Source of the DNA: Candidatus Moraniibacteriota bacterium
GTDB taxonomy: Bacteria > Patescibacteriota > Minisyncoccia > Moranbacterales > UBA2206
Reading direction: 5' to 3'
DNA length: 64,000 bases
Assembly: GCA_049303795.1 (NCBI GenBank)
Contig: JBAQNM010000004.1
Location: forward strand, 8,623-72,622
In this document: one piece after another, positions 2,217 through 15,752 of the stretch
How the letters are laid out: every line of letters begins with the position of its first letter
Position numbering within the stretch: position 1 is the first letter of the stretch
Position numbers and translations under genes: made by a program
Notes under the pieces: generated by a model
The model's input: the letters and a program-made list of their open reading frames with translations, nothing else
Told to the model about the DNA's origin: nothing
Databases searched by the model: none

Positions 2217-3230
2217 ATGAATTCTAGCATAAAAAACATTTTAGTAACTGGCAGTTCCGGCATGATTGGAACAGCGCTCGTGCAAGCACTTCAAAAAAAG
2301 GGCTATGGTGTCTATGGTTTTGATATAAAAGAACCAGCTATTTATAGTGATTTCAAATATAAAGTTGTTGACCTTACTAAACCTGTAGAGGAATCTTTTG
2401 GTGTAAATATAGATTTGGTCATTCATCTTGCTGCCCACGCCAGAGTATATGAACTTGTTATTGATCCAGCAAAAGCACTTGAAAATGCGACTATGGTTCA
2501 TAATATCTTTGAATGGTGCCGAAAAAATGAAGTTAAAAGATTTTTATTTGCTTCATCAAGAGAAACATATGGAGATCAAACAGAATTGCCCGTCAAGGAA
2601 AGTGTTGCCAATCAACGTTTTTCAAAAAGCAACTACACGGCTGGAAAGATTTTTGGCGAAGCTTATTGCTATTCATATAGCCATTGTTACAATATGCAAT
2701 GCAAAATAATGCGTCTTTCTAATGTTTATGGAAAATATGATTTCTCTGATAGATTTATTCCAAAAATAATTAACCAATTTATCAACGATCAAGATGTCAC
2801 TATATATGGAGAAAACAAAACCCTAGATTTCACCTATCTTGATGATTGTGTTAATGGAATTTGCCTACTTATAAATAAATATGATGTATCTGCTTTTTTA
2901 GAATACAATATTGCTTCAGGCACACAATCCAGCTTAATTGATGTCGCTCAAAAAATAAAAGACCTACTCGATTCAAAAGCAGAAATTAAAGTTGGTGAAA
3001 ATCTCACTGGTGAGGTTTTTAATTATCAAGCGGATATTTCTCGCATGAAAAACATAGGCTATGCACCAAAAATATCAGTTGAAGATGGAATAGAAAAATC
3101 GCTTGGCTATTATAGTGAATATTTCGCACCAAAAAAGAGCCTTGCCTCTCTTGCTATTGAACAATTAAAAATAGAATCGGAAAAATTAGGAACAGAATTT
3201 TCAGAATCGCTTTGTCCGGCTTTGGATTAA
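2217..3230 (+). CDS. NAD-dependent epimerase/dehydratase (SDR family, UDP-sugar epimerase-like)
   Basis: N-terminal Rossmann motif GSSGMIGTALV. Catalytic YxxxK (YTAGK). 337 aa. Confidence 0.85.
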   Translation: MNSSIKNILVTGSSGMIGTALVQALQKKGYGVYGFDIKEPAIYSDFKYKVVDLTKPVEESFGVNIDLVIHLAAHARVYELVIDPAKALENATMVHNIFEWCRKNEVKRFLFASSRETYGDQTELPVKESVANQRFSKSNYTAGKIFGEAYCYSYSHCYNMQCKIMRLSNVYGKYDFSDRFIPKIINQFINDQDVTIYGENKTLDFTYLDDCVNGICLLINKYDVSAFLEYNIASGTQSSLIDVAQKIKDLLDSKAEIKVGENLTGEVFNYQADISRMKNIGYAPKISVEDGIEKSLGYYSEYFAPKKSLASLAIEQLKIESEKLGTEFSESLCPALD

Positions 3231-3260
3231 TTTTTGAAAATGATAGTATTTTAGAAACAA

Positions 3261-3292
3261 AAAAACAGCGGTCAGATGACTGTTGTTTTTTT
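3261..3292 (+). terminator. rho-independent terminator
   Basis: Stem cagcggtca / tgactgttg (with G-U wobbles), loop gat, followed by a T7 run. Sits just after the epimerase stop. Confidence 0.6.
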
Positions 3293-3340
3293 GTTTAATT
3301 ATTAATCCCTTTCTTAATGTGGAAAAATGTGAAAAAAAAC

Positions 3341-3370
3341 TTGACAAAATACAGATAATCGTATTATTAT
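3341..3370 (+). promoter_or_regulatory. candidate promoter (TTGACA ... TATTAT)
   Basis: TTGACA at 3341-3346 and an AT-rich -10 (TATTAT/ATTATT) 15-18 nt downstream. Spacer length is ambiguous. Confidence 0.3.
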
Positions 3371-3521
3371 TTAATGTTATTTTATCGGCCATTTTATGGA
3401 TCGATTTATAACGGTTCATTTACAAATTATAGAATAAAAAGACTCAGAAAGGAGGGTTCTAGCTCAAAATTTTAGAGTGTCTGAAAACACAATTTTAACT
3501 TAATGAATCAGGAGGAAAAAG

Positions 3522-4253
3522 ATGGACAAAGACGATCCACGCTTTAAAAAATGGGAGACTATTTTCAAATGGGGCCTTGGATTTGGCGGTGCAATTGCCA
3601 TTTCCCAGGTAGCACTGTTGGCCATTCAAGGAATTCTTGGTCTGGTTGTAGCTATTGGTCTTGGAGAGACCATTATACAACTTGCGCCTGTTTTTTCCTT
3701 AAAATTGGCCAATTGGAAAATCAAACTTCTGACCGCTGAGGTTGAAGCCAATCCGATTGAGACATTAATCGGGTTGAAAATTGAAAAGGACCGTGAGTAT
3801 GGGCAAGCCGGTCAAGATATTGTCGCCTTTGAAACGGAAGTAAGAAACTTCCATGATGAGGTTGCAACGTTTGAGGGGCAGTTTCCCGAAGAAGCAGCTG
3901 CTTATAGAGACATCTACAAAAAAATGAGTAGTGGACTCGATGACATGAAAAAGCGCCAAGCTGAAGCTGCAACGAAACTTGATGCATTAAGCAAGACTAT
4001 CGAAAAAGCAAAGGCCATATACAAAATGTCCTTAGCGGCTGAACGAGTGACGCAACTTTCCAAGCCGGCAGAAGCAATCGTGTTTGCCGACATCAAGGAA
4101 AGGATTGCTTTTGACACAGTAAGGACGCAGTTAAATCATTCATTCGCGTCGCTAAACAATGCCGTTAACCTTCGACGAGAGATTCGCCCAAAAGCTTTTC
4201 CTCTCGGAGGAGAAAAAACCGCAGGACTTATCGAATCAAAGGAGGCCGTATGA
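3522..4253 (+). CDS. Hypothetical membrane-anchored coiled-coil protein
   Basis: AGGAGG Shine-Dalgarno 7 nt upstream. N-terminal hydrophobic segments (GLGFGGAIAISQVALLAIQGILGLVVAIGLG) followed by a charged, alanine-rich helical region. Noticeably higher GC than neighbouring genes. Confidence 0.6.
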   Translation: MDKDDPRFKKWETIFKWGLGFGGAIAISQVALLAIQGILGLVVAIGLGETIIQLAPVFSLKLANWKIKLLTAEVEANPIETLIGLKIEKDREYGQAGQDIVAFETEVRNFHDEVATFEGQFPEEAAAYRDIYKKMSSGLDDMKKRQAEAATKLDALSKTIEKAKAIYKMSLAAERVTQLSKPAEAIVFADIKERIAFDTVRTQLNHSFASLNNAVNLRREIRPKAFPLGGEKTAGLIESKEAV

Positions 4254-4399
4254 AATTCAGAATTATAGCATCAATTTTACTCATTGCTGCAACCTTAACC
4301 GGCTACTGGCTTTTTTACAGCAGTGATCAGACAACTGACAAGCCGGAAACGCAACAAATCGAAGAAACCACCCACAAATCACCTTTCATAACGAACTAA
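4250..4399 (+). CDS. Small membrane protein (49 aa), translationally coupled
   Basis: The ATG overlaps the upstream TGA stop (ATGA). MKFRIIASILLIAATLTGYWLFYSSDQTTDKPETQQIEETTHKSPFITN has one TM helix. Absent from the ORF track because it is under 60 aa. Confidence 0.4.
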   Translation: MKFRIIASILLIAATLTGYWLFYSSDQTTDKPETQQIEETTHKSPFITN

Positions 4400-4414
4400 A
4401 AAAAGGAGCAACTC

Positions 4415-5497
4415 ATGAAAAAAATGAATCGTTTGTTTTGGGCTATCGCATGTGTTTTTGGAATATTTTTTTCAAGCCCGGTATTTTCTGAGGAAGGCAA
4501 GGCTCCGGCCTCCTGCCCCAAAGAAAAAATCGCTGTGGCAACAGGAATTTCAACCGGAACATATTCAAAAATGTTTCAATCAGTCGCCAATCTGCCGGAA
4601 CTGAGCGACATCGTTTGTGAATACACGCAAACAAGTGGCGGCTATGACAACGTCCTGCTCTTGATGGATCGAAAGGTTGATGCAGGCATCGTTCAGGCCG
4701 ATGTGTTCGACTTCCTGAACAAAACCAATCCGGATATCAGGAAGAACTTAAGAAGCCTTTTTGCCATGCATGGAAGCTCCATGCACATCTTTGTTCTGAA
4801 AAATGGAACGGAGTGTAAAACGGTGACTCCTGGAAAAATTCGAATGCTGGATAAAACCGTAACATCGATTGTAAAAATCGAAAACCTTCGAGATCTCAAG
4901 GGTCTCAAAGTCGCCGCGCTCAGCAGTGCAGTTGTTACGGGAACTGAGGTGAGCGATCTGTTAAAGCTCAATCTCGACATTGTCGAGACAACAAAAGATG
5001 GTGGCTTTGAAAAGCTGAAAAATGGCGAGGTATATGCATTCCTGGCCATGGGCGGCAAGCCGATCGATTGGATTGATAAGGTTGATGCGAACATTTTCAC
5101 ATTAGCCAATGTCGATTCGACAGACATTCAAGCCCTGGGGTCTCCCTTCTACAATACCAAATTGCAGTATAAAAAATTCGGCGCTATCGGCACCAACGCC
5201 ATAACGGCGAGAAACGACTTTGTCGTCTGGGATTATAAAGGGAAAAAATCCGCCCTGCTTTCAAAAATTTATGATACTGTTTTTGAAAATCTGGCGGACG
5301 TCAAAGAGGACATGAGTTCTCATCCATGCTGGCAGGAAATAACCGAGGAAAATATTACCGACGTTTTCTGGCAGAAATATGAGCCGCCGGCCACCAATAA
5401 GTCAAAGCGGGAAAAGGTTGAATCAGAATCGACTTCTGAGCAACCATCCTCAGAAATGGTTATCACTCCTGCTGTAAAAAAACACCGCGGAAAATAA
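4415..5497 (+). CDS. Secreted periplasmic solute-binding protein, TAXI/PhnD-like fold (orphan; no permease nearby)
   Basis: AAGGAG Shine-Dalgarno 7 nt upstream. Signal peptide MKKMNRLFWAIACVFGIFFSSPVFSEEG. The motif KIAVATGISTGTYSKMF...TSGGYDNVLLLMDRKVDAGIVQADV resembles TAXI-family TRAP solute receptors. Confidence 0.5.
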   Translation: MKKMNRLFWAIACVFGIFFSSPVFSEEGKAPASCPKEKIAVATGISTGTYSKMFQSVANLPELSDIVCEYTQTSGGYDNVLLLMDRKVDAGIVQADVFDFLNKTNPDIRKNLRSLFAMHGSSMHIFVLKNGTECKTVTPGKIRMLDKTVTSIVKIENLRDLKGLKVAALSSAVVTGTEVSDLLKLNLDIVETTKDGGFEKLKNGEVYAFLAMGGKPIDWIDKVDANIFTLANVDSTDIQALGSPFYNTKLQYKKFGAIGTNAITARNDFVVWDYKGKKSALLSKIYDTVFENLADVKEDMSSHPCWQEITEENITDVFWQKYEPPATNKSKREKVESESTSEQPSSEMVITPAVKKHRGK

Positions 5498-5526
5498 TCT
5501 CATTTTCCGAAAAAAGTTAAACCAGT

Positions 5527-5563
5527 CCATCACTATGCGAAGCGTAGTGGTGGGCTTTTTTTA
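5527..5563 (+). terminator. rho-independent terminator
   Basis: Stem ccatcacta / tagtggtgg, loop tgcgaagcg, then gcttttttt. Follows the stop of the solute-binding protein gene. Confidence 0.55.
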
Positions 5564-5603
5564 TAAAAAAGCCATTTCAGAGAAATGACTTAACTATGGG
5601 ACA

Positions 5604-5636
5604 ATCGGTCTGCTCGATAAAAAATGTAGTGTGCGG
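5604..5636 (+). repeat. 33-bp perfect direct repeat, copy 1 (atcggtctgctcgataaaaaatgtagtgtgcgg)
   Basis: Identical 33-mer recurs at 8075-8107. Confidence 0.9.
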
Positions 5637-5873
5637 CGGATTCTGAAAGAAGCTCGAACTTTCTTTGAAAAGCAGGCTTGAATTTCTCCGCTCCGCTTCC
5701 GCCCGCAAACTTTGAAGAAGTTTGCGTTCCAAAACAGAAAAATTTTCTCTACTTTTCGGATTTTGTATGCGCGCCGATTTTTTCAAAAAAATGAAAAGGA
5801 AATTTTTCTGGTTTTGGAGTTCGCATAGCGAACGGCGGAAAACGGAACCTCAATAAATAAGTACTGATTATAT

Positions 5874-6629
5874 TTATTTTACTGGCTTCCCTATATCCCA
5901 TAACGCCTTATAAAAAATTCGCATGGTATCGGCATATGATTTGCTTTCAATAACAAAGCTGTAATTTTCTTCTAATGGAGCAAATGAAGCAACGACATCA
6001 TCATAAATTAAAAGTGAATTATTTAGTTTCATGCCTAGTGGCAATTCTCGTGCTTCGCGATTTGTAGGTTTCAGTGTTTCCGTCGCAAAATAGCGATGCG
6101 TGCTTTTTTGTCCATGATTTCTCAGAACTTTACTTTTGATGCCTCTCCTTCCTGCTTTTTCAATATACTGCTCAATAAACTGTTTGCCTAAAATATCCGT
6201 GGCAGCTTTATGAGCAATTGTCCAAAAGACTTCTTTTCCCCTAGCTTCCAATGCATTTAGCCAGATTCTTTTCATGCCCTCCTTACCGCGATAATATTTG
6301 AAATTAGTGGAAAACTTTTCTGCTTCAAATATTTTTTTAAGCTGTGGTAATGATTCATTTAATGCATCCTGGTTTCTTTTTTGTATTTCCCCTAAAACAT
6401 CCGGGCTCTCAGCGATATAAATTATTTTTTTACCTTTTTGCGTCTGACTTACTAACCCCAACTGAATTAACTTCTCTAAAAAATTATACACTGTCGTTCT
6501 TTTCACCTTGGCTTTGCTGGAAATTTCTTGCACCGACCCACTGCCTAATTCCAAACAAGCTAAATAAATTTTAGCTTCCTTGTCAGAAAAACCCAAATTT
6601 TTTACAAAAACGACAGCACTCTGATCCAT
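5874..6629 (-). CDS. TrmB-family HTH transcriptional regulator
   Basis: N-terminal winged-helix LGFSDKEAKIYLACLELGSGSVQEISSKAKVKRTTVYNFLEKLIQLGLV. A paralog lies at 42636-43439. Confidence 0.7.
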   Translation of the reverse strand: MDQSAVVFVKNLGFSDKEAKIYLACLELGSGSVQEISSKAKVKRTTVYNFLEKLIQLGLVSQTQKGKKIIYIAESPDVLGEIQKRNQDALNESLPQLKKIFEAEKFSTNFKYYRGKEGMKRIWLNALEARGKEVFWTIAHKAATDILGKQFIEQYIEKAGRRGIKSKVLRNHGQKSTHRYFATETLKPTNREARELPLGMKLNNSLLIYDDVVASFAPLEENYSFVIESKSYADTMRIFYKALWDIGKPVK

Positions 6630-6762
6630 AAAATAATCTATTTAATTTTGTCTATATTATAGACAAATAGTATTGAATTTGTCAAGTTTCCTGCTATACT
6701 AAACAACCATTGCAACATCGTTGTTAGTGGCAAGTTCGTTAAAATCTAAATGGAGGTTATTT

Positions 6763-7695
6763 ATGAATGATAAAAATAAAAGATTTATTTACACTCGAGG
6801 ATTTCTTCTCCCAGATGATCAGAGCACAATTATGAGCGAATCATCACTTTCTCCAGATTTTATTGCTAAATATCGTGAGGGAAAATTTAATCAATCTACT
6901 AATGATATTCCCTTTAATGTCGGCGATATTTTTAACGAAACAAAAAAGATTCTCAAAGAAATTCATGGCAAACCGCTTACCGTAGATCCGATTCCTGCAG
7001 TTTTCACTGGCGATAATTTTATTATGGCAAGAAAGCTGTTTGATCTTCGTCCTGCGTTTTCACCTGGTGCTGAAATACTAAAAGAGATTTGCGAAAATAA
7101 ATGGGCAGAAAATGGCAAAAATCGGTGGCGAACATACTGCGAACACTTGGAAGAAGATGAAAAAGAAGAAATGATTCATGATAATTTTGTCAGAAAAGTC
7201 ATTTTTTCAAATTGGCCACGCGGGTGGTATCTTTATGATGCCACTGATTTAAGAAAAGAGCGTGCTATTCTTTCTGACAAAGAACATCCTACTCACGACA
7301 AACTCGCACCTCTCATCGCAGAATTAAGAAGAACAAAAGAGGTTGGCGGATACGACAACACTCCGCCAAGCACGCGCAAATCTCTTTTTATAAACGCTGA
7401 ATGGCCAAAAGTCTTAGCCGGACAAGAGGCAATTTTGCCGTTCCTAAAAACTGGAGTGGGATCCATCCTTTCCTATTCCGCATTCTATATGATAGGGCAT
7501 ATGTACGACAAAAATTTGTTACATACATATGCAACTACTTACTTTGCTGAAATTACACGAGGACTTTTTGGTATCTGGCGACGCTCATCAATCGCTCCGT
7601 GTAAGTATCATCGCATGGAGATTAGGCAATCGGCGACAGATTCTCTTCGTCCAGTAGGAATATGTCGCACATTTTGGGGTTGGAGGACGTTGTAA
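6763..7695 (+). CDS. Hypothetical protein (310 aa, no recognisable domain)
   Basis: Start chosen at ATG 6763 with a GGAGG Shine-Dalgarno 6 nt upstream; the track's TTG at 6721 is in frame. No motifs recognised. Confidence 0.6.
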   Translation: MNDKNKRFIYTRGFLLPDDQSTIMSESSLSPDFIAKYREGKFNQSTNDIPFNVGDIFNETKKILKEIHGKPLTVDPIPAVFTGDNFIMARKLFDLRPAFSPGAEILKEICENKWAENGKNRWRTYCEHLEEDEKEEMIHDNFVRKVIFSNWPRGWYLYDATDLRKERAILSDKEHPTHDKLAPLIAELRRTKEVGGYDNTPPSTRKSLFINAEWPKVLAGQEAILPFLKTGVGSILSYSAFYMIGHMYDKNLLHTYATTYFAEITRGLFGIWRRSSIAPCKYHRMEIRQSATDSLRPVGICRTFWGWRTL

Positions 7696-7700
7696 ACAAA

Positions 7701-7736
7701 GAGGCTCAGTAGAAAATCACTGAGCCTTTATTATTT
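7701..7736. terminator. hairpin terminator (bidirectional) between convergent genes
   Basis: Stem aggctcagt / actgagcct, loop agaaaatc, with T/A-rich flanks. Confidence 0.6.
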
Positions 7737-7760
7737 AACTTTTTTATTAATAAACATTAT

Positions 7761-7958
7761 TCACTTTGATAGCTCATAAGCCGAAATTCCTAAGGCTTTT
7801 GCAATTTTTTCAATATTTAAAAGCGTGGGATTTCTTTTGTCATTTTCAATCCCGCTAATGTAAGCTCTATGCACATCTAATTTTCGGGAAATATCTCCTT
7901 GCGATATTCCTTTTTGAGTTCTGATTCTCTTTAAATTGTTGCTCGGTTTAGCAGAAAT
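7761..7958 (-). CDS. XRE-family (Cro/C1-type) HTH regulator; start codon unresolved
   Basis: Reverse translation gives ...NNLKRIRTQKGISQGDISRKLDVHRAYISGIENDKRNPTLLNIEKIAKALGISAYELSK*. No in-frame ATG/GTG/TTG precedes the HTH. The ATG at 7998 is in another frame, separated by a T5 run at 7961-7965. Confidence 0.55.
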   Translation of the reverse strand: MSAKPSNNLKRIRTQKGISQGDISRKLDVHRAYISGIENDKRNPTLLNIEKIAKALGISAYELSK

Positions 7959-8074
7959 TGTTTTTGCTTCTATTGGCGGTTTTAGTGTTTTTGATCATTT
8001 AGTTCGGGTGTCCTATTCTCCTTCGGATTTTTAGACTTTGCGATTTTTTGCAAAATGGCCTAAAATTGAGGCTC

Positions 8075-8107
8075 ATCGGTCTGCTCGATAAAAAATGTAG
8101 TGTGCGG
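8075..8107 (+). repeat. 33-bp perfect direct repeat, copy 2, overlapping the last 3 nt of tRNA-Asp
   Basis: Identical to 5604-5636. It abuts and overlaps the 3' end of tRNA-Asp at 8105-8107. Confidence 0.9.
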
Positions 8108-8178
8108 GGACGGCCGGACTCGAACCGGTGACCTACTGCGTGACAGGCAGTCGCTCTAACCAACTGAGCTACGCCCCC
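8105..8178 (-). tRNA. tRNA-Asp (GTC)
   Basis: Cloverleaf GGGGGCG..GCCTGTCACGC..GGTTCGAGTCC..CGTCCCCG. Anticodon loop CTGTCAC. No encoded CCA. Confidence 0.85.
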
Positions 8179-8207
8179 GTGTGAATATTTTATTTTAAAT
8201 CAATTCG

Positions 8208-8282
8208 TAGCAGGGGTGGGGATCGAACCCACGAACCTCAACGTTATGAGTGTTGCGCTCTAACCAACTGAGCTACCCTGCC
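8208..8282 (-). tRNA. tRNA-Met (CAT), elongator-type (or tRNA-Ile2)
   Basis: GGCAGGGTAGCTCAGTTGGTTAGAGC..CTCATAA..GGGTTCGATCCCCAC..CCCTGCTA. Closely resembles an elongator tRNA-Met. G1-U72 pair. Confidence 0.7.
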
Positions 8283-8329
8283 AACATAACAAACGACTCA
8301 CTGCGTTTTATGCTTATTATAAGTTTTTG

Positions 8330-8402
8330 TTGCGGGGGCAGGACTCGAACCTGCAACCTTGTGGTTATGAGCCACACGAGCTGCCAATTGCTCCACCCCG
8401 CT
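8330..8402 (-). tRNA. tRNA-fMet (CAT), initiator-like
   Basis: AGCGGGGTGGAGCAATTGGCAGCTCGTGTGGCTCATAACCACA..GGTTCGAGTCC..CCCCGCAA is near-identical in layout to E. coli initiator tRNA. It has A11:U24 and A73, and an unpaired A1xA72. Confidence 0.7.
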
Positions 8403-8422
8403 ATTTTTAATGACTATTTAGC

Positions 8423-8451
8423 ATTCTAGATGAGAAAAACACATTCGTCAA
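8423..8451 (-). promoter_or_regulatory. sigma70-like promoter for the tRNA cluster (TTGACG-17-TAGAAT on minus strand)
   Basis: Reverse complement reads TTGACGaatgtgtttttctcatcTAGAAT, about 20 nt upstream of tRNA-fMet. Confidence 0.45.
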
Positions 8452-8468
8452 TAAACTATCCTAGTTTG

Positions 8469-9005
8469 CTAATCTATCACCTGAAAATACTGCAAAAATT
8501 TTTCAAAATCGGCAATTGTCTTTTGCGCTTCTTCTTTGGTTAATATGAAGCTTTCATCATGAATTATGCGATTACGCACCTCATGTGCCCGCCTCAAATC
8601 TTCAATATTTTCAATTTGCCCAGGAGTAATCCCGTCCAAGCGCTCGCCAAAATTTTCTCCCTTATAGCCCATTCTTGTAATCAAATCATCGATAATATTA
8701 TCACCTTCAATAATTGCCACTTTATATTCAGACTGATTATTGCTTTTGAGTCGCGCCTTCACTTTATTCCATTTTGCTATTAACTTTCCTTTTTTAGTGA
8801 TCATCTCAGGAGGAACATTTATCCCAAGCACTGTATCACGCAAATCACCACCAAAAGGACGTTGCTTAATTAATAAAGCTAAATCAAAAAGTAGCACAAG
8901 AACATAGATAATCAAAAAATATTTTATCAATGCAAAAGTCAGCGAAGAAAGAAATAATTTCTTAACGATAGCTAGCATTGAAAATGCATCTCCTATTCCA
9001 TTCAT
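8469..9005 (-). CDS. Hypothetical membrane protein
   Basis: 178-aa ORF with an N-terminal hydrophobic helix, at the tail of the ligA-gatCA operon. Confidence 0.5.
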   Translation of the reverse strand: MNGIGDAFSMLAIVKKLFLSSLTFALIKYFLIIYVLVLLFDLALLIKQRPFGGDLRDTVLGINVPPEMITKKGKLIAKWNKVKARLKSNNQSEYKVAIIEGDNIIDDLITRMGYKGENFGERLDGITPGQIENIEDLRRAHEVRNRIIHDESFILTKEEAQKTIADFEKFLQYFQVID

Positions 9006-9010
9006 ATTAT

Positions 9011-10465
9011 TTATTTATTTATTTCATAAGCATGCGCAGCGCGCAAAACATTTTCCTCATCAAACCATCTTCCCATAAGCTGAAATCCCAGTGGCAACTT
9101 TTTACCATCAACTTCTACTTCTGGCCCTGGAACAGAAATAGTAGGTATTCCAGCAACATTTGAAATTACAGTGAAGATATCCGCCAAATACATTTCGAGC
9201 GGGTCATCAGTCTTTTCTCCTAATTTAAATGCCGGCGTCGGAGTTGTAGGAGTTAGGATTAAATCCACCTCATTAAAAGCTTTTTCAAAATCATTCTTAA
9301 TAAGCGTTCTTACTTTTTGCGCTTTCAAATAATATGCATCGTAATATCCAGCGGAAAGCGCATAAGTTCCAAGCATTATTCTTCGCTTCACCTCAGCGCC
9401 CAATCCATATTGACGAGAATCCAAATAGGTTTCTAATAATTTTTTAGGCATACTATTGGCCTCCATATGGGAATCTTTTTCATCATTAATAGACATCCCG
9501 TATTTTATACCATCATATTTTGCCAAATTGGAACTGATTTCTGAAAAGTTAATTATGTAATAAACAGGCAAAGAATACTTAGCATATGGAAGTTCAATTT
9601 CTTTTATCTCCGCGCCTAATTCCCTATATTTTTCAATTACCTTTTCGACAGATTCTTTTACGTCTGATCGCAAGGCTTCCAAATATTCTTTCACAATTCC
9701 AATTTTTAGTCCCTTAACTTCTCCGGTTAGAAAACTAATATAATCCTTATCTGAGCTATGCGCAGTAGTCGCATCCATTCTATCCTGACCGGCAATAACA
9801 CTAAGGACTATCGCGGCATCTTCGACCGTTTTCGAAATTACACCGACTTGTTCCAGGCTAGAAGCAGCGGGCAAAACGCCATAGCGTGAAACTCTACCAT
9901 AAGTAGGTTTCAATCCAACCACGCCACAAAAAGCTGCGGGTTGTCTAGTTGAACCACCAGTATCTGTTCCGAGTGTCCACGCTGCCATATCCGCAGCAAT
10001 TGCAGCAGCTGATCCACCGGAAGTTCCGCCAGGAACTCTTTCCAAATCACGCGGATTTCTAGTCGGACCATAGGCACTATTTTCAGTGCTTGATCCCATT
10101 GCAAATTCATCACAATTAGTCTTGCCCAAAAACACAGCGCCTGATTCTTTTAATTTCTTAATAACTGTTGCGTCATATGGCGCGATATAGTTATCAAGAA
10201 TTTTAGATCCTCCTGTAGTTCTTACTCCTTGAATACAGATAAGATCTTTGATTCCGCCCGGAATTCCTTCAAGCATTCCAATTTCTTTACCATTTCTAAT
10301 TTTTTCATCTATCTTTCTTGCCTGCGCCAAAGCCAACTCTTTCGTGATAGTCAAAAAAGCATTAATGTTCTCGTTTTCTTTTTCAATTCGCGCCAAATAC
10401 CCTTCCGTCAATTTTTCCGAAGTAGTCTCTCCATTAATTAATTTTTCGTGTAACTCCTTGAGCAT
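9011..10465 (-). CDS. gatA: Glutamyl-tRNA(Gln) amidotransferase subunit A
   Basis: Amidase signature region GGSSGGSAAAIAA. 484 aa. Confidence 0.95.
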   Translation of the reverse strand: MLKELHEKLINGETTSEKLTEGYLARIEKENENINAFLTITKELALAQARKIDEKIRNGKEIGMLEGIPGGIKDLICIQGVRTTGGSKILDNYIAPYDATVIKKLKESGAVFLGKTNCDEFAMGSSTENSAYGPTRNPRDLERVPGGTSGGSAAAIAADMAAWTLGTDTGGSTRQPAAFCGVVGLKPTYGRVSRYGVLPAASSLEQVGVISKTVEDAAIVLSVIAGQDRMDATTAHSSDKDYISFLTGEVKGLKIGIVKEYLEALRSDVKESVEKVIEKYRELGAEIKEIELPYAKYSLPVYYIINFSEISSNLAKYDGIKYGMSINDEKDSHMEANSMPKKLLETYLDSRQYGLGAEVKRRIMLGTYALSAGYYDAYYLKAQKVRTLIKNDFEKAFNEVDLILTPTTPTPAFKLGEKTDDPLEMYLADIFTVISNVAGIPTISVPGPEVEVDGKKLPLGFQLMGRWFDEENVLRAAHAYEINK

Positions 10466-10773: not shown

Positions 10774-12927
<2,154 letters not shown>

Positions 12928-12937
12928 TCAATAACGC

Positions 12938-14710
12938 TTAACAACAATAGCGACTATCCCCACCACTACAACCAGAGGTGCAACTTCCACAAACAGAGCC
13001 AGGACATAACATCAATCCACAAGTTGTAGGACTATAGCAATTACCACAAGTCGGTGTACACTTACCAAAAGTAGAGCAACTATTTTGAATACAACAAGTT
13101 TCAGATGCATTCGGATGATAACCAGCACTACAAATCACCTTGCAACTTTTTGTTAAGGTATAATTGCAATCCGTCGCTCCTTTAGTACATGTTGTTCCGC
13201 TTACATTCCAACCACTCATTCCTGTTGTAAGGGCTCCGCAATATTTTATTGAATCAGTTATTATAGGAGAAGGACAGGGACGAGAACAACAACGAGATTT
13301 TGTTAAGACATTGCCTGGGGTTGGAATCCTTGGTGGTAATGTTGGAGGATAGAGAGGATTTGGTATTTCACCACCATTCATATCAACATCAATATCATGA
13401 GTTAAAGTCCAAACAGAACTGTTAATACCTTGGTCTTTATCAACATCGTTAGGAGGGCAACCTGTGCAATAACCAACTGTACGACGTGGCTTTGTGCAAC
13501 TAGCTCCAGACAAACAATTTACAGCTTTACCAACACCACAAAAACCGACTCCTCCATTGACACCATCACCTGAGTTATTTCCTGAAGGATATTCTTCAAC
13601 CTTACTAATAACAGAGCCTCTATAGTTATCACCATCAAGATATCCGTGATAATTACCTGTGCATGTTTGCAAACAACAAGTCTTTGCAGCATTAGATACC
13701 CATTCTGGACCCATACAAGACAAACAATGAGAACCATTGCAACAATTATGTGTCCCTCCATATGCGCCAGCCCCGTCAACGCTTCCAAAAATACAGCCAA
13801 GTCCAGACAAGGAGCTTCCTCCAGTACAGTCCGCACTGCCCTCTATTTGAATTGCATCATTAGGATCATAATGATAGAGTGAATCCAATTTAAAGGGGGT
13901 GCTGTTTCTTGCTTTGATAGCAAAAAAGTATTTTTCATTATACTGGCCACCAGTTGTTGCAGTTCCAGGCAATTCAGGATCACCACTTTCAATCAAACGA
14001 GTTTGATTTCTAGTGAAAAAAGAATTGACTGGTGCAGTTCTTTGCAATACTCTTATCCAACCATATTCTCCCGCATTAGCTCCATTTTCCAAAGATCCAG
14101 TGTCATTGTTTCCTGATGACATTCTAACTTCATAATTTACCACTCCGCCGGGAACAGTAGCCTGATTATCATTCACCCTAACAAGCATCTCGCATCTATT
14201 CCACGAGCAACTACCACCACCACCGCATTTCGTAACTGTCAAGCTACCATTAGTGAGCATTCCATCGACTCTATCTGAAACCGGGGCATAGACTGATCGA
14301 GTAACACCTTGATCCGTCACATCAGACTGAGAATTGAAAATGGTTGTTACTTTGTCTGTGCCAGCTGGAGCGGTTGTCCCATCACCTTTAAAACATTGGA
14401 CTCCCGAGCAAAAGCTAGTGGCAAGAGTATTTTCAGGAATTTGATTGTCTGCATAACCGGCATCAGTCCCACTGTCCAATTCATTCAATTTACTCAAAAA
14501 ACCTTCCACAGTTTGATCTGACTGTTGGTATGTAGTATAGCCTTTTTTGGAATCAGTAGTGAGTTGAATACCTTGTAAGGTTCGACTTATAATTGCCAGG
14601 GCAATCGCCGAAATCATTAAAAAAACAATCATAACACCAATAAGCAGTGAGCCCTTCCCTCTAATAAATAGTCCTTTTCTGGATTTTTTTTTGTTTATCT
14701 TTTTATTCAT
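12938..14710 (-). CDS. Large cysteine-rich surface protein with a PilX_N-like N-terminal anchor (candidate pilus-tip/adhesin protein)
   Basis: N-terminus KGLFIRGKGSLLIGVMIVFLMISAIALAI resembles PilX/pseudopilin anchors. 590 aa with about 40 Cys concentrated in the C-terminal half. Last gene of the pil operon. Confidence 0.65.
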   Translation of the reverse strand: MNKKINKKKSRKGLFIRGKGSLLIGVMIVFLMISAIALAIISRTLQGIQLTTDSKKGYTTYQQSDQTVEGFLSKLNELDSGTDAGYADNQIPENTLATSFCSGVQCFKGDGTTAPAGTDKVTTIFNSQSDVTDQGVTRSVYAPVSDRVDGMLTNGSLTVTKCGGGGSCSWNRCEMLVRVNDNQATVPGGVVNYEVRMSSGNNDTGSLENGANAGEYGWIRVLQRTAPVNSFFTRNQTRLIESGDPELPGTATTGGQYNEKYFFAIKARNSTPFKLDSLYHYDPNDAIQIEGSADCTGGSSLSGLGCIFGSVDGAGAYGGTHNCCNGSHCLSCMGPEWVSNAAKTCCLQTCTGNYHGYLDGDNYRGSVISKVEEYPSGNNSGDGVNGGVGFCGVGKAVNCLSGASCTKPRRTVGYCTGCPPNDVDKDQGINSSVWTLTHDIDVDMNGGEIPNPLYPPTLPPRIPTPGNVLTKSRCCSRPCPSPIITDSIKYCGALTTGMSGWNVSGTTCTKGATDCNYTLTKSCKVICSAGYHPNASETCCIQNSCSTFGKCTPTCGNCYSPTTCGLMLCPGSVCGSCTSGCSGGDSRYCC

Positions 14711-14735
14711 TTTATAAAAAATTATTTTTTATCTT

Positions 14736-15230
14736 TTATTTATAGCCGCTACGCATAGAGGTGGTTGTTTGAACAGATGTTCTAATTCCACCGCTTGGAT
14801 TGGTTTTTGAAATAACAACTGTAATCAGTGGTATCTGAGCTGCATTTACAACATAAAATTGACCGTTAACGCCACTGGCAATTATCTGTCCATTTCTTTC
14901 CAAATTACCACCAACAAAATTATAAGTAACGTTTACTGCTGCGCCGGAGTTTTCTTTCAAGGCAATACTATTTCTGACGCCATTAGTAGTTGGCGTAAGC
15001 GTATTGCTCATACGAATATCTTTAGAAACATAGTTCAATGCCAAAGAAAGTTCTTCATTATTCGCCTGATATTTCTTAAGACTTAAGCTACCTTTTAAAT
15101 AGGCACCAGAAACTGCCACGCTTGCGAGAATAGTAATGGAAAAAATAGCCATACCAAAAAGCAACTCTACAAGACTTAATCCTCGCCTGTTAGTATGTAA
15201 CCATTTTTTATTTTTTATTATTTGTTTCAT
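14736..15230 (-). CDS. Type IV minor pilin / pseudopilin
   Basis: Prepilin motif RRGLSLVELLFGMAIFSI (G|LSLVE, Glu at +5). Confidence 0.75.
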   Translation of the reverse strand: MKQIIKNKKWLHTNRRGLSLVELLFGMAIFSITILASVAVSGAYLKGSLSLKKYQANNEELSLALNYVSKDIRMSNTLTPTTNGVRNSIALKENSGAAVNVTYNFVGGNLERNGQIIASGVNGQFYVVNAAQIPLITVVISKTNPSGGIRTSVQTTTSMRSGYK

Positions 15231-15242
15231 TTATTTTTTTGA

Positions 15243-15752
15243 TTAATTGGCATTGGCCCAAGCAGATAAAGTATCAGTCACCACAATTGTTGTGTCTGCT
15301 GCTGCTCCAACAGGTCTCCATGTTACAGTACTTGTGATGGTTCGATCATCCCCGGCAACAGCAATTTGAATTCTTCGTGAAAACTTCGTAGCCGTTCCGC
15401 CAGCCGCATAAGAATAAAAACCAGTGGCTGTTACATTAAGTTTTCTTGTACACAAGGCAGTGCCATCGCTTCCTCCTAAATAATCGCGACAATAATTTCC
15501 TGCAGCTGGAAAAGGCAAATCAAAAGCTTTTCGTGGTGCTTTCCAATTATTATCACGAACATTACGCACAAGCTCAACTCCTTCCTGCGCCAGATTGGCA
15601 GCGATCACATAGTCACGCTTACTAAATTCTGCTCGATACATTAAAGCTAAAATATTTATAAAAACTATCAACGCCACGCCTATAATGAAAATAGCAAAAG
15701 CGGCTTCGATCATAATAAATCCTGACTTTTTTTGTTTTTTTGTTTTTCGCAT
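15243..15752 (-). CDS. Type IV minor pilin / pseudopilin
   Basis: Prepilin motif KSGFIMIEAAFAIFIIG. Confidence 0.7.
   Translation of the reverse strand: MRKTKKQKKSGFIMIEAAFAIFIIGVALIVFINILALMYRAEFSKRDYVIAANLAQEGVELVRNVRDNNWKAPRKAFDLPFPAAGNYCRDYLGGSDGTALCTRKLNVTATGFYSYAAGGTATKFSRRIQIAVAGDDRTITSTVTWRPVGAAADTTIVVTDTLSAWANAN

What the first reader, a model, noticed from the sequence alone, without database searches (positions are those of the whole stretch)
5604..8107. Perfect 33-bp direct repeats bracket a 2.5-kb segment that ends at the 3' end of tRNA-Asp: candidate att sites of a degraded integrated element
The 33-mer atcggtctgctcgataaaaaatgtagtgtgcgg occurs exactly twice, at 5604-5636 and 8075-8107. 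The second copy overlaps the last 3 nt of the minus-strand tRNA-Asp and runs into its 3' flank, the classic position of an attL/attR pair from tRNA-targeted integration.

The bracketed DNA carries only regulators (a TrmB-like HTH and an XRE HTH with a broken start) plus a 310-aa protein of unknown function. There is no integrase, which suggests a decayed or satellite element.

Between copy 1 and the TrmB gene lies about 240 nt of non-coding DNA. It contains three perfect hairpins, including gcaaactt-tgaag-aagtttgc and gttcgc-atag-gcgaac.
Basis: seen in the sequence. Interest (0 to 1): 0.65.

Follow-up and report, generated by a model that had tools for sequence, protein, structure and literature searches.

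The report
Conserved tRNA-trailer motif brackets a gene insert
A 33-base sequence that sits unchanged right after tRNA genes in several distantly related Moraniibacteriota occurs twice here, bracketing a 2.5-kb integrase-less gene block, and it most likely acts as a recombination site where small gene blocks are added or lost next to tRNA-Asp.

Summary
The 33-mer (R) occurs exactly twice, at 5604-5636 and 8075-8107. The second copy abuts the 3' end of tRNA-Asp and overlaps it by 3 nt.

R is more than an insertion scar. Its 32-nt body is invariant in five other Candidatus Moraniibacteriota genomes, single-copy in each. It always starts right after the discriminator base of a tRNA (Asp, Ser-TGA, Ser-GGA). 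It always forms the 5' strand of a hairpin that precedes a terminator. The closest relatives lack it, so its distribution is patchy.

The bracketed 2.47 kb holds a TrmB-like regulator, an orphan 310-aa protein and a 5'-truncated XRE. It has no recombinase and ordinary composition. The compositional outlier is its left neighbour (3400-5603).

Two near-identical MAGs carry a junction that joins the right end of the block across R to a 94% variant of its left end. k-mer breakpoints in four sequencing runs point to the same junction. This is the joint expected for a tandem or circular form.

Best reading (about 0.5): a decayed, integrase-less (CIME-like) unit in a composite island at tRNA-Asp, recombining at R through an unidentified trans-acting enzyme. 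No empty site was found. An RNA role for R is not excluded.

The parts
5604..5636 (-). R1, the distal copy of the 33-nt motif R. On the minus strand it lies at the 3' end of the TrmB-NC transcription unit and has no complementary 3' arm.
   Evidence: Exact match. The fold shows no partner strand. A minus-strand terminator follows 12 nt later.
8075..8107 (-). R2, the tRNA-proximal copy of R. It begins (minus strand) right after the discriminator G73 of tRNA-Asp and is the 5' strand of the long trailer hairpin.
   Evidence: The same register is seen in L016, L017, L018, L019 and L021.
8105..8178 (-). tRNA-Asp(GTC).
   Evidence: ARAGORN. Rfam RF00005, 66 bits.
8207..8402 (-). Two tRNA-Met(CAT) genes upstream in the same operon. 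A promoter-like site lies at 8451-8423(-).
7975..8074 (-). 3' strand of the long (rod-type) trailer hairpin. It is 88-90% conserved with L017 and L018. Its own terminator is broken at about 7970-7975, where XRE sequence begins. The 9 nt next to R differ at 4 positions from the L007/L015/L017/L018 version.
7761..7973 (-). XRE/HTH_3 fragment resembling R-M controller (C) proteins. It has no canonical start codon, and its 5' end is fused to the trailer.
   Evidence: Pfam HTH_3 on the called product. PADLOC Control_protein 1e-17.
7700..7729 (.). Bidirectional terminator hairpin between p310 and XRE.
6763..7695 (+). p310, an orphan 310-aa protein. It is a divergent member of a rare ~300-aa CPR family of unknown function.
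5874..6629 (-). TrmB-like winged-helix regulator (251 aa) with a perfect sigma-70-type promoter at 6685-6656(-).
5637..5873 (.). NC, a 237-nt non-coding, strongly self-complementary region (two perfect hairpins and one long imperfect hairpin inside an outer stem). A 94% variant, NC', follows R in L007 and L015.
5569..5591 (-). Minus-strand terminator-like hairpin 12 nt after R1. It is a candidate for the original terminator of the tRNA operon before the insertion.
3400..5603 (+). E0, the compositionally foreign left neighbour. It holds p243 (3522-4253), p49 (4250-4399) and p360 (4415-5497), and its + strand terminator is at 5524-5556.
   Evidence: GC 0.43 against 0.35, and tetranucleotide distance at the 98th percentile. 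PHROG 27316 (2e-37) and PHROG 6856 (9e-16).

Best explanation
R is a conserved 33-bp site that lies directly 3' of certain tRNA genes in Candidatus Moraniibacteriota. It is the invariant strand of a trailer hairpin, and it serves as the joint at which small gene blocks are inserted, stacked and lost.

In this genome the order is tRNA-Asp, R2, E1 (2,438 bp between the two copies), R1, E0. E1 holds the trailer 3' strand, a truncated XRE, p310, TrmB and NC. E1 is a decayed unit without a recombinase, comparable to a cis-mobilizable element (CIME). E1 and E0 together form a composite island.

Shown:
- The two exact copies with sharp borders.
- The conservation, register and hairpin context of R in other species.
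- The patchy distribution of R.
- The absence of a recombinase in 70 kb.
- The extra trailer'-R-NC' junction in sister strains.

Inferred:
- Recombination occurs within R.
- It is catalysed in trans by a site-specific recombinase encoded elsewhere or now lost.
- Before insertion the tRNA operon ended as tRNA-Asp, R, then the terminator at 5591-5569.
For: 1. Two exact 33-nt copies sit 2,471 bp apart with abrupt loss of similarity on all four sides, and no other copy exists in 64 kb.

2. In two other MAGs of the same species (99.9% identical) the contig reads XRE, trailer', R, NC'. The right end of E1 is joined across R to a 94% variant of its left end. That is the joint expected of a tandem second unit or a circular relative. 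Contig ends fit k=31 graph branches created by that junction. Four Logan contigs end at 5632. Two start at 5769, which is 30 nt before the first NC/NC' difference. The sister MAG's tRNA-Asp contig stops at 8109, the edge of R.

3. The 4 SNPs between strains all lie within 9 nt of R's left border, and the window's version breaks two pairs of the trailer helix. This marks R2 as a recombinant joint.

4. R is invariant (32 of 32) in L016, L017, L018 and L019, and has one mismatch in L021, although ligA and gatA are only 64-70% identical. It is absent after tRNA-Asp in the much closer L023 (ligA 93%) and in L025 (74%). Patchy distribution with identical sequence indicates horizontal spread or recognition by a sequence-specific protein.

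5. The non-tRNA side of R is accessory DNA in every genome examined. The same tRNA-Asp flank holds large serine recombinase genes or remnants (L017/L022, L018, L023) or a defence island ending in a tyrosine integrase (L025).

6. An otherwise unassigned minus-strand terminator follows R1 by 12 nt, while the trailer terminator next to R2 is destroyed. This fits splitting of an original tRNA-R-terminator unit.

7. The CIME concept and tandem accretion at att sites at the 3' end of the target gene are established (PMC5704250).
Against: - No recombinase gene lies in E1, in the 64-kb window or in 5.6 kb further left.
- No empty site (p360-R-tRNA-Asp) was recovered from any assembly.
- E1 is compositionally ordinary.
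- TrmB shows the same level of divergence from other Moraniibacteriota homologues as core genes do, and those homologues sit in non-R contexts.
- The trailer/XRE border looks like an illegitimate deletion, not a clean element end.
- Invariance of R in genomes with only one copy, and its hairpin partner that varies through G.U-compatible changes on the tRNA strand, could equally reflect an RNA function.
- The linkage of NC' to this locus rests on short-read metagenome assemblies. It could instead reflect a second locus that shares the roughly 130-nt trailer+R repeat.
Confidence: 0.5

Rival explanations
1. R is primarily an RNA element. It is the conserved 5' strand and loop of a structured 3' trailer (a 3'-ETS-like small RNA or processing/stability hairpin) co-transcribed with tRNAs. 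Under this view R1 is a second, partial instance at the 3' end of the TrmB-NC transcript. The two-copy arrangement then comes from ordinary rearrangement, not from site-specific integration.
For: - R always lies on the tRNA strand, starts right after the discriminator and is followed by a rho-independent terminator.
- It forms a hairpin in all six complete trailers. The 3' arm differs between species while keeping pairing, through A/G opposite U, which works only on this strand.
- The long trailer is 88-90% conserved between species whose proteins are 56-69% identical, and it has 2 compensatory pairs.
- R1 is also followed by a terminator on the same strand.
Against: - No Rfam family matches.
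- R1 lacks any 3' arm, so it cannot make the hairpin, yet it is 33/33 identical.
- A purely structural RNA would let both arms covary, whereas R is invariant.
- R is absent from the closest relatives, so it is not a general tRNA-processing requirement.
- This reading does not explain the trailer'-R-NC' joint or the SNP cluster at R's edge.
- Covariation support is thin: 3-4 sequences per type, and most pairs are invariant.
Confidence: 0.25
2. The duplication is a by-product of homologous or illegitimate recombination, such as slipped or template-switch events at palindromic DNA, between two pre-existing R-containing loci. No dedicated recombinase is involved and the block is not mobile.
For: - The region is rich in palindromes.
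- The NC hairpin loop is inverted between NC and NC', a template-switch signature.
- The XRE/trailer border lies in a terminator hairpin loop.
- No recombinase was found.
Against: - A 33-bp homology is short for RecA-type exchange.
- The same precise R borders recur with five different left partners and five different right partners across genomes. This is more typical of a defined site than of random breakpoints.
Confidence: 0.12
3. R is the chromosome dimer-resolution site (dif), and E1 is an IMEX-type element that uses the host XerC/D.
For: R is single-copy per genome in four species representatives. The element has no integrase and is flanked by direct repeats of about 30 bp. Tandem stacking is possible.
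Against: - R lacks the two 11-bp inverted arms around a 6-8-bp spacer that define dif (sequence).
- There is no GC-skew switch at this position. Skew stays negative on both sides except over the +-strand genes at 2-5.5 kb.
- The fixed register against three different tRNAs has no rationale for dif.
- R is absent at this locus in close relatives.
Confidence: 0.03
4. The repeat is an assembly or binning artefact.
For: The source is a short-read metagenome assembly. Contigs in sister assemblies break at R.
Against: An identical arrangement occurs in an independent NCBI MAG (L001/L005/L012, 100% identity over 15-19 kb). It also occurs, apart from 4 SNPs, in L007, which spans both copies. A 33-bp repeat is far below the assemblers' final k.
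Confidence: 0.02

Closest known systems
CIME (cis-mobilizable element) and tandem accretion of ICE/IME-type islands at att sites at the 3' end of a target gene such as a tRNA gene (PMC5704250)
   Same: The unit is bounded by identical direct repeats next to a tRNA 3' end and has no integration or transfer genes. There is evidence for a second, related unit joined head-to-tail across the same site. The neighbouring block (E0) is compositionally foreign. Relatives carry recombinase-bearing islands at the same tRNA.
   Different: The repeat contains only 3 nt of the tRNA. No cognate integrase or autonomous relative has been identified. The unit is very small (2.5 kb) and compositionally native. 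The host is a CPR bacterium in which conjugative elements are not documented here. The site is invariant across genera even where it is unoccupied.
Integron cassettes with attC sites, and the folded single-strand attP of CTX phage
   Same: Small promoter-poor gene blocks are stacked at one locus. The site is an imperfect hairpin with a bulged base, whose two strands are unequally conserved.
   Different: No IntI or attI is present. The R''/R' (RYYYAAC/GTTRRRY) boxes are absent. R1 has no hairpin partner. The bracketed genes have their own promoters and terminators.
tRNA 3' external transcribed spacer RNAs (for example 3'ETS-leuZ of E. coli; from my own knowledge, literature located)
   Same: A short structured RNA is encoded between the last tRNA of an operon and its terminator.
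   Different: There is no expression or target evidence. The sequence is invariant across genera, yet absent from the closest relatives, and is duplicated away from any tRNA.
Large-serine-recombinase prophages and islands at tRNA genes
   Same: LSR genes or remnants lie within 0-1.6 kb of the tRNA-Asp 3' end in L017/L022, L018 and L023.
   Different: LSR integration leaves attL and attR sharing only a 2-bp core, not a 33-bp perfect repeat. No LSR is present in the window.

Membership tests
tRNA-targeted integrative element (island or prophage with its own integrase) | Integrase or recombinase gene inside the bracketed DNA | tested here: not met
   Pfam on all three ORFs. tblastn and phmmer with a CPR tyrosine recombinase, E. 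coli XerD and three LSR sequences against all ORFs of the window plus 5.6 kb gave no hit with E<0.09.
tRNA-targeted integrative element (island or prophage with its own integrase) | Flanking direct repeats (attL/attR) | tested here: met
   33/33 identity, two copies only, sharp borders.
tRNA-targeted integrative element (island or prophage with its own integrase) | The repeat reproduces a substantial 3' part of the tRNA gene | tested here: not met
   Only 3 nt (C71, C72, G73) overlap. 30 nt are 3' flank.
tRNA-targeted integrative element (island or prophage with its own integrase) | Empty site in close relatives | tested here: inconclusive
   No p360-R-tRNA-Asp contig appears among 15 conspecific contigs. 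The nearest other species (L023, ligA 93%) has tRNA-Asp without R. Reads could not be mapped.
tRNA-targeted integrative element (island or prophage with its own integrase) | Compositional discontinuity of the insert | tested here: not met
   E1 has GC 0.367 and a tetranucleotide distance at about the 40th percentile. The outlier is 3400-5603.
CIME / integrase-less att-flanked unit | attL and attR retained, integration and transfer genes lost | tested here: met
CIME / integrase-less att-flanked unit | Tandem accretion with a related element at the same site | tested here: inconclusive
   A trailer'-R-NC' joint occurs in L007 and L015, with matching k-mer breakpoints in four runs. The remainder of the second unit was not recovered.
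CIME / integrase-less att-flanked unit | A cognate autonomous element or integrase that recognises the same att | not testable with these tools
R is absent from IMG/VR, PLSDB and phage records.
IMEX at dif | 28-bp XerC/XerD dyad site at the replication terminus | tested here: not met
   R has no dyad arms. There is no skew switch.
Integron cassette array | IntI gene, attI, and attC with R''/R' boxes | tested here: not met
   No tyrosine recombinase was found and no GTTRRRY/RYYYAAC boxes occur in R or its partner. Only the imperfect-hairpin property is shared.
Structured tRNA-trailer RNA (3'ETS-type) or any Rfam family | Same-strand position between a tRNA and a terminator | tested here: met
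   This holds in six genomes.
Structured tRNA-trailer RNA (3'ETS-type) or any Rfam family | Conserved secondary structure supported by covariation | tested here: inconclusive
   A hairpin is predicted in all complete trailers, with G.U-compatible variation in the 3' arm. Only 2 of 33 pairs are compensatory in 4 long-type sequences. The short-type alignment is poor.
Structured tRNA-trailer RNA (3'ETS-type) or any Rfam family | Match to a curated RNA family | tested here: not met
   cmscan at E<=1 over 3000-9500 found only the three tRNAs and noise.
Dispersed repeat (REP/MITE/uptake sequence) | Many copies at unrelated loci in one genome | tested here: not met
   Two copies in 64 kb. One copy per genome in four species representatives.

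The most novel reading that the evidence does not exclude
R and its variable partner strand form a new kind of folded, strand-specific recombination site, functionally analogous to integron attC or the CTX-phage attP hairpin. The site is embedded in the 3' trailer of tRNA genes of CPR bacteria. An unrecognised recombinase uses it to stack and exchange small cassettes (E1, E2 and others) next to tRNAs. The cassette's structured NC end and the trailer reconstitute the complete site only in the circular or tandem form.
Probability: 0.1. Interest if true: 0.8.

Novelty: new variant of a known kind. Interest (0 to 1): 0.5.

Why it matters
Mobile-element biology of CPR/Patescibacteria is almost unknown. 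A defined 33-bp site that marks the border between a tRNA and variable DNA in several Moraniibacteriota genera would be a concrete handle. It is polymorphic for gene-block content between 99.9%-identical strains.

The site can be searched for, its junctions can be counted in reads, and a recombinase can be sought by co-occurrence. If R instead proves to be an RNA, it would be an undescribed, unusually invariant tRNA-linked RNA motif. Either result is testable with existing metagenomes and metatranscriptomes.

Tried and rejected
- **dif/IMEX:** rejected. R has no dyad arms and there is no skew switch.
- **Large-serine-recombinase att pair:** rejected. Such sites do not leave 33-bp repeats, and no LSR is in the window.
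- **Integron attC:** rejected as membership (no boxes, no IntI). The analogy is kept only for the novel case.
- **Hammerhead-like reading of CCGAUGAG...GAAA in the trailer loop:** rejected. The core U is replaced, stem II is absent, and there is no Rfam hit.
- **NC as a decayed or intron-containing tRNA:** not supported. It shares GTTCGAG with the tRNA-Asp T-loop, but neither ARAGORN nor Rfam calls it, and the spacing does not fit. The paper on group I introns in Patescibacteria tRNA-Asp/Asn genes (PMC13011429) mentions nothing like R.
- **TrmB as a plasmid Rep:** only weak PHROG hits (1e-3), and its homologues are chromosomal.
- **Second unit via TrmB homologues:** P0096 comes from an unrelated sample.
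- **Left border of E0:** no remnant of R, trailer or NC lies at 3230-3520.
- **R and NC in other collections:** absent from IMG/VR. The whole segment has no match in PLSDB or phage records.
- **Compensatory change between NC and NC':** none. The few substitutions in the long hairpin break pairs.
- **afdb50 fold library:** unavailable.
Full report
**1. Observation**

The 33-mer R (ATCGGTCTGCTCGATAAAAAATGTAGTGTGCGG) is present exactly at 5604-5636 and 8075-8107. No third copy appears with up to 3 mismatches, and none occurred in 100 shuffles. No copy with 22 or more of 33 matches exists elsewhere in the 64 kb, and BLAST finds none.

tRNA-Asp(GTC) is on the minus strand at 8104/8105-8178, preceded in the same operon by two tRNA-Met genes. 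R therefore overlaps only C71, C72 and G73 of the tRNA. The other 30 nt are 3' flank. Similarity stops abruptly on all four sides of the two copies.

The organism is a Candidatus Moraniibacteriota (CPR) MAG lineage. An independent NCBI assembly (GCA_049286985.1) is 100% identical over 15-19 kb, including both copies.

**2. What lies between and beside the copies**

On the minus strand there are two transcription units.

- **Unit 1.** A promoter-like site at 8451-8423 is followed by tRNA-Met, tRNA-Met, tRNA-Asp, R2, a 100-nt conserved trailer (8074-7975), an XRE frame (7973-7761) and the bidirectional terminator at 7727-7702.
- **Unit 2.** A perfect TTGACA-18-TATAAT promoter at 6685-6656 is followed by the TrmB-like gene (6629-5874), the 237-nt non-coding NC region, R1, 12 nt, and a terminator hairpin at 5591-5569.

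p310 (6763-7695, + strand) lies between the two units.

The XRE frame has no ATG, GTG or TTG before its HTH. The only nearby ATG (7998-7996) is out of frame. The frame upstream of 7974 is simply trailer sequence, so the gene is 5'-truncated at a junction. Its closest profile matches are restriction-modification controller proteins, but no R-M genes are present.

p310 is an orphan:
- It is the only member of its 90% cluster among 5.8 billion proteins.
- It has nine remote relatives in 1.8 billion representatives. It is a divergent member of that family and has lost several family motifs.
- It has no Pfam, PDB, PHROG or PADLOC hit.
- One family member sits next to nusG-rplK.

No tyrosine or serine recombinase is detectable in the window or in 5.6 kb further left.

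**3. Composition**

The bracketed DNA (5637-8074) has GC 0.367 against 0.353 for the window, and its tetranucleotide distance is near the 40th percentile. It is ordinary.

The outlier is the left neighbour, 3400-5603 (p243, p49, p360). Its GC is 0.43 (z about +3) and its distance is at the 98th percentile, and its right edge coincides with R1. p243 and p360 match phage protein families of unknown function (PHROG 27316 at 2e-37; PHROG 6856 at 9e-16).

**4. R in other genomes**

This result changes the picture. A scan of one genome per species (GTDB) with the 28-nt core of R found four other genomes, each with a single copy. A scan of JGI metagenomes with a 24-nt core added one more distinct locus.

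In every case R begins immediately after the discriminator base of a tRNA on the tRNA's strand:
- tRNA-Asp in L016, L017 (= L022) and L018.
- tRNA-Ser(TGA) in L019 (= L020).
- tRNA-Ser(GGA) in L021.

Thirty-two nucleotides are invariant in L016-L019 and there is one mismatch in L021. This holds although gatA, ligA and p178 are only 69%, 64-66% and 44-59% identical to the window, and although L018's tRNA-Asp has a different acceptor and T arm.

By contrast, the much closer L023 (ligA 93%, gatC 95%) and L025 (ligA 74%) have the same p178-tRNA-Met-tRNA-Met-tRNA-Asp synteny but no R after tRNA-Asp. R is therefore patchily distributed and sequence-invariant. This combination is not expected of a vertically inherited neutral flank or of a general tRNA-processing signal. 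R is absent from IMG/VR, PLSDB and phage records.

**5. R is one strand of a hairpin**

On the tRNA strand the transcript would read G73|CACACUACAUUUUUUAUCGAGCAGACCGAU.

In the three short trailers (L016, L019, L021), positions 8-24 pair with a downstream arm (...UGCUCGAAAAGAAUG and variants). That arm differs between genomes but keeps pairing, partly through G opposite U. A rho-independent terminator follows.

In the long trailers (window R2, L007, L017, L018), R pairs with a distal strand (GAAUAGGACACCCGAACUAAAUG) to close a rod of about 100 nt. That rod has 33 consensus pairs, 2 of them compensatory. The long trailer is 88-90% identical between species.

The window's copy differs from all the others in the 9 nt next to R and so breaks two pairs. 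Its terminator is cut in the loop, where XRE begins. R1 has no partner strand at all. No Rfam family matches.

**6. Polymorphism at R**

Two other MAGs of the same species (GCA_049305975.1, contig L007; GCA_049296135.1, contig L015) are about 99.9% identical to the window through E1. After the second R they continue not into tRNA-Asp but into NC'. NC' is a 94% variant of NC that is colinear for about 210 nt and then diverges.

The only four substitutions relative to the window lie in the 9 nt left of R. There these contigs match L018 exactly, and match L017 except at one position. L007 contains both NC and NC', so they are paralogous, not allelic. In the same MAG the tRNA-Asp contig (L003) stops at 8109, the edge of R.

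Logan (k=31) contigs give independent support:
- Four contigs from four runs end at 5632. This is the last 31-mer containing the unique base 5602, as expected if a second context shares A+R.
- Two contigs start at 5769, which is 30 nt before the first NC/NC' difference at 5799.

A joint trailer-R-NC is what a head-to-tail tandem of two related units, or a circular relative, would produce. I could not recover the rest of the second unit, and I cannot exclude that NC'-R-trailer' lies at a separate locus.

**7. Context in relatives**

In all genomes the non-tRNA side of R, or of tRNA-Asp, is accessory DNA:
- L017/L022 and L018 have two small genes and a large serine recombinase gene, apparently frameshifted.
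- L023 has a truncated large serine recombinase abutting tRNA-Asp, followed by a type I R-M system.
- L025 has HD, Shedu and HaeIII-type R-M genes ending in a tyrosine integrase.
- L016 has a nuclease-like ORF, L021 a RhuM-like ORF and L020 an APH-like ORF.

The locus is a general insertion hotspot.

TrmB, however, has 72-75% homologues in other Moraniibacteriota in unrelated chromosomal contexts. Nucleotide similarity there covers the gene and its promoter but not NC or R. This cargo gene may be native.

**8. Interpretation**

The best-supported reading (about 0.5) is that R is a defined recombination joint. The window carries a composite island in the order tRNA-Asp, R2, E1, R1, E0.

E1 is a decayed unit without a recombinase, comparable to a CIME. 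Sister strains carry an additional related unit or circle. The terminator 12 nt beyond R1 is plausibly the original end of the tRNA operon. The concept of integrase-less att-flanked remnants and their tandem accretion at att sites at the 3' end of a target gene is established (PMC5704250).

What is shown:
- The repeat and its borders.
- Its cross-species invariance, register and hairpin context.
- Its patchiness.
- The lack of a recombinase.
- The variant joint.

What is inferred:
- That exchange happens within R.
- That a trans-acting enzyme does it.

**9. Rivals**

- **RNA-only role for R (about 0.25).** This is supported by strand, position, hairpin and terminator. It does not explain R1's perfect identity without a partner strand, the invariance of only one strand, the absence from close relatives, or the variant joint. 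The two readings are not exclusive. A recombinase may have adopted a trailer hairpin as its site.
- **Recombinase-independent rearrangement at palindromes (about 0.12).** This is suggested by the inverted loop (TGAAG to CTTCA) of the 9-bp-arm hairpin between NC and NC' and by the break in a terminator loop.
- **dif/IMEX and artefact.** Both are unlikely.

**10. Verdict**

The att-site interpretation is partly supported but needs reframing. This is not a classic tRNA-core att pair around a compositionally foreign island. It is a conserved tRNA-trailer motif that serves as the border and joint of small variable blocks.

Novelty: a new variant of a known kind. Interest: moderate (0.5). The decisive data are junction-spanning reads, long reads, and the remaining contigs of these MAGs.

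Noticed in passing
window 3400-5603: The block p243-p49-p360 is the real compositional outlier (GC 0.43, tetranucleotide distance at the 98th percentile). p243 and p360 match phage protein families of unknown function (PHROG 27316 and 6856). It is probably an older foreign block whose right edge is R1.
   Followed up: partly
window 5706-5728, compared with L007:6690-6712 and L015: The perfect hairpin cgcaaactt-TGAAG-aagtttgcg has its 5-nt loop exactly inverted (CTTCA) in the NC' variant. This is a signature of palindrome flipping or template switching.
   Followed up: partly
L018:1960-2631(-); L023:10797-11474; L024:3093-3770: A 223-aa LAGLIDADG-type ORF lies between tRNA-Asp and tRNA-Met in L018. 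A 225-aa HTH_23 ORF lies between the two tRNA-Met genes in L023 and L024. These look like free-standing homing-endonuclease-like genes occupying tRNA-cluster spacers in Moraniibacteriota.
   Followed up: no
L023:11864-20537; L025:11687-19303: In relatives the same tRNA-Asp flank carries defence islands. L023 has a truncated large serine recombinase overlapping the tRNA 3' end, plus a type I R-M system with RhuM. L025 has HD, Shedu (SduA_C) and a HaeIII-type R-M system, ending in a tyrosine integrase next to lepA.
   Followed up: partly
window 7761-7973(-): The XRE fragment matches restriction-modification controller (C) proteins best (PADLOC 1e-17), although no methylase or nuclease gene is nearby. 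It may be the last remnant of an R-M cassette.
   Followed up: no
window 6763-7695(+), and P0086-P0094: p310 belongs to a rare ~300-aa family with strongly conserved motifs (VDPLP..FTEENL, RGWYLADFT, LERAIEFNAIGNLYD.NRG.FN.WEWF, AGRPL). The family has no Pfam or PDB relative. p310 itself has lost several of the motifs.
   Followed up: partly
window 11700-15600: This is a second tetranucleotide-outlier stretch (distance at the 95th-100th percentile). It covers the 5' part of ligA and the adjacent 590-aa and pilin-like genes.
   Followed up: no
L022:1-1136(+), equivalent to L017:7483-8000: The large serine recombinase gene near R in L017/L022 appears interrupted within its catalytic domain. The ORF restarts at a TTG inside the ...RLSRN... 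motif, with a stop upstream. It may be a pseudogene.
   Followed up: partly
window 8257-8358(-): A sub-threshold Rfam YrlA (Y RNA-like) hit of 32.5 bits (gathering score 69) spans parts of the two tRNA-Met genes. It is most likely a tRNA-like artefact.
   Followed up: no
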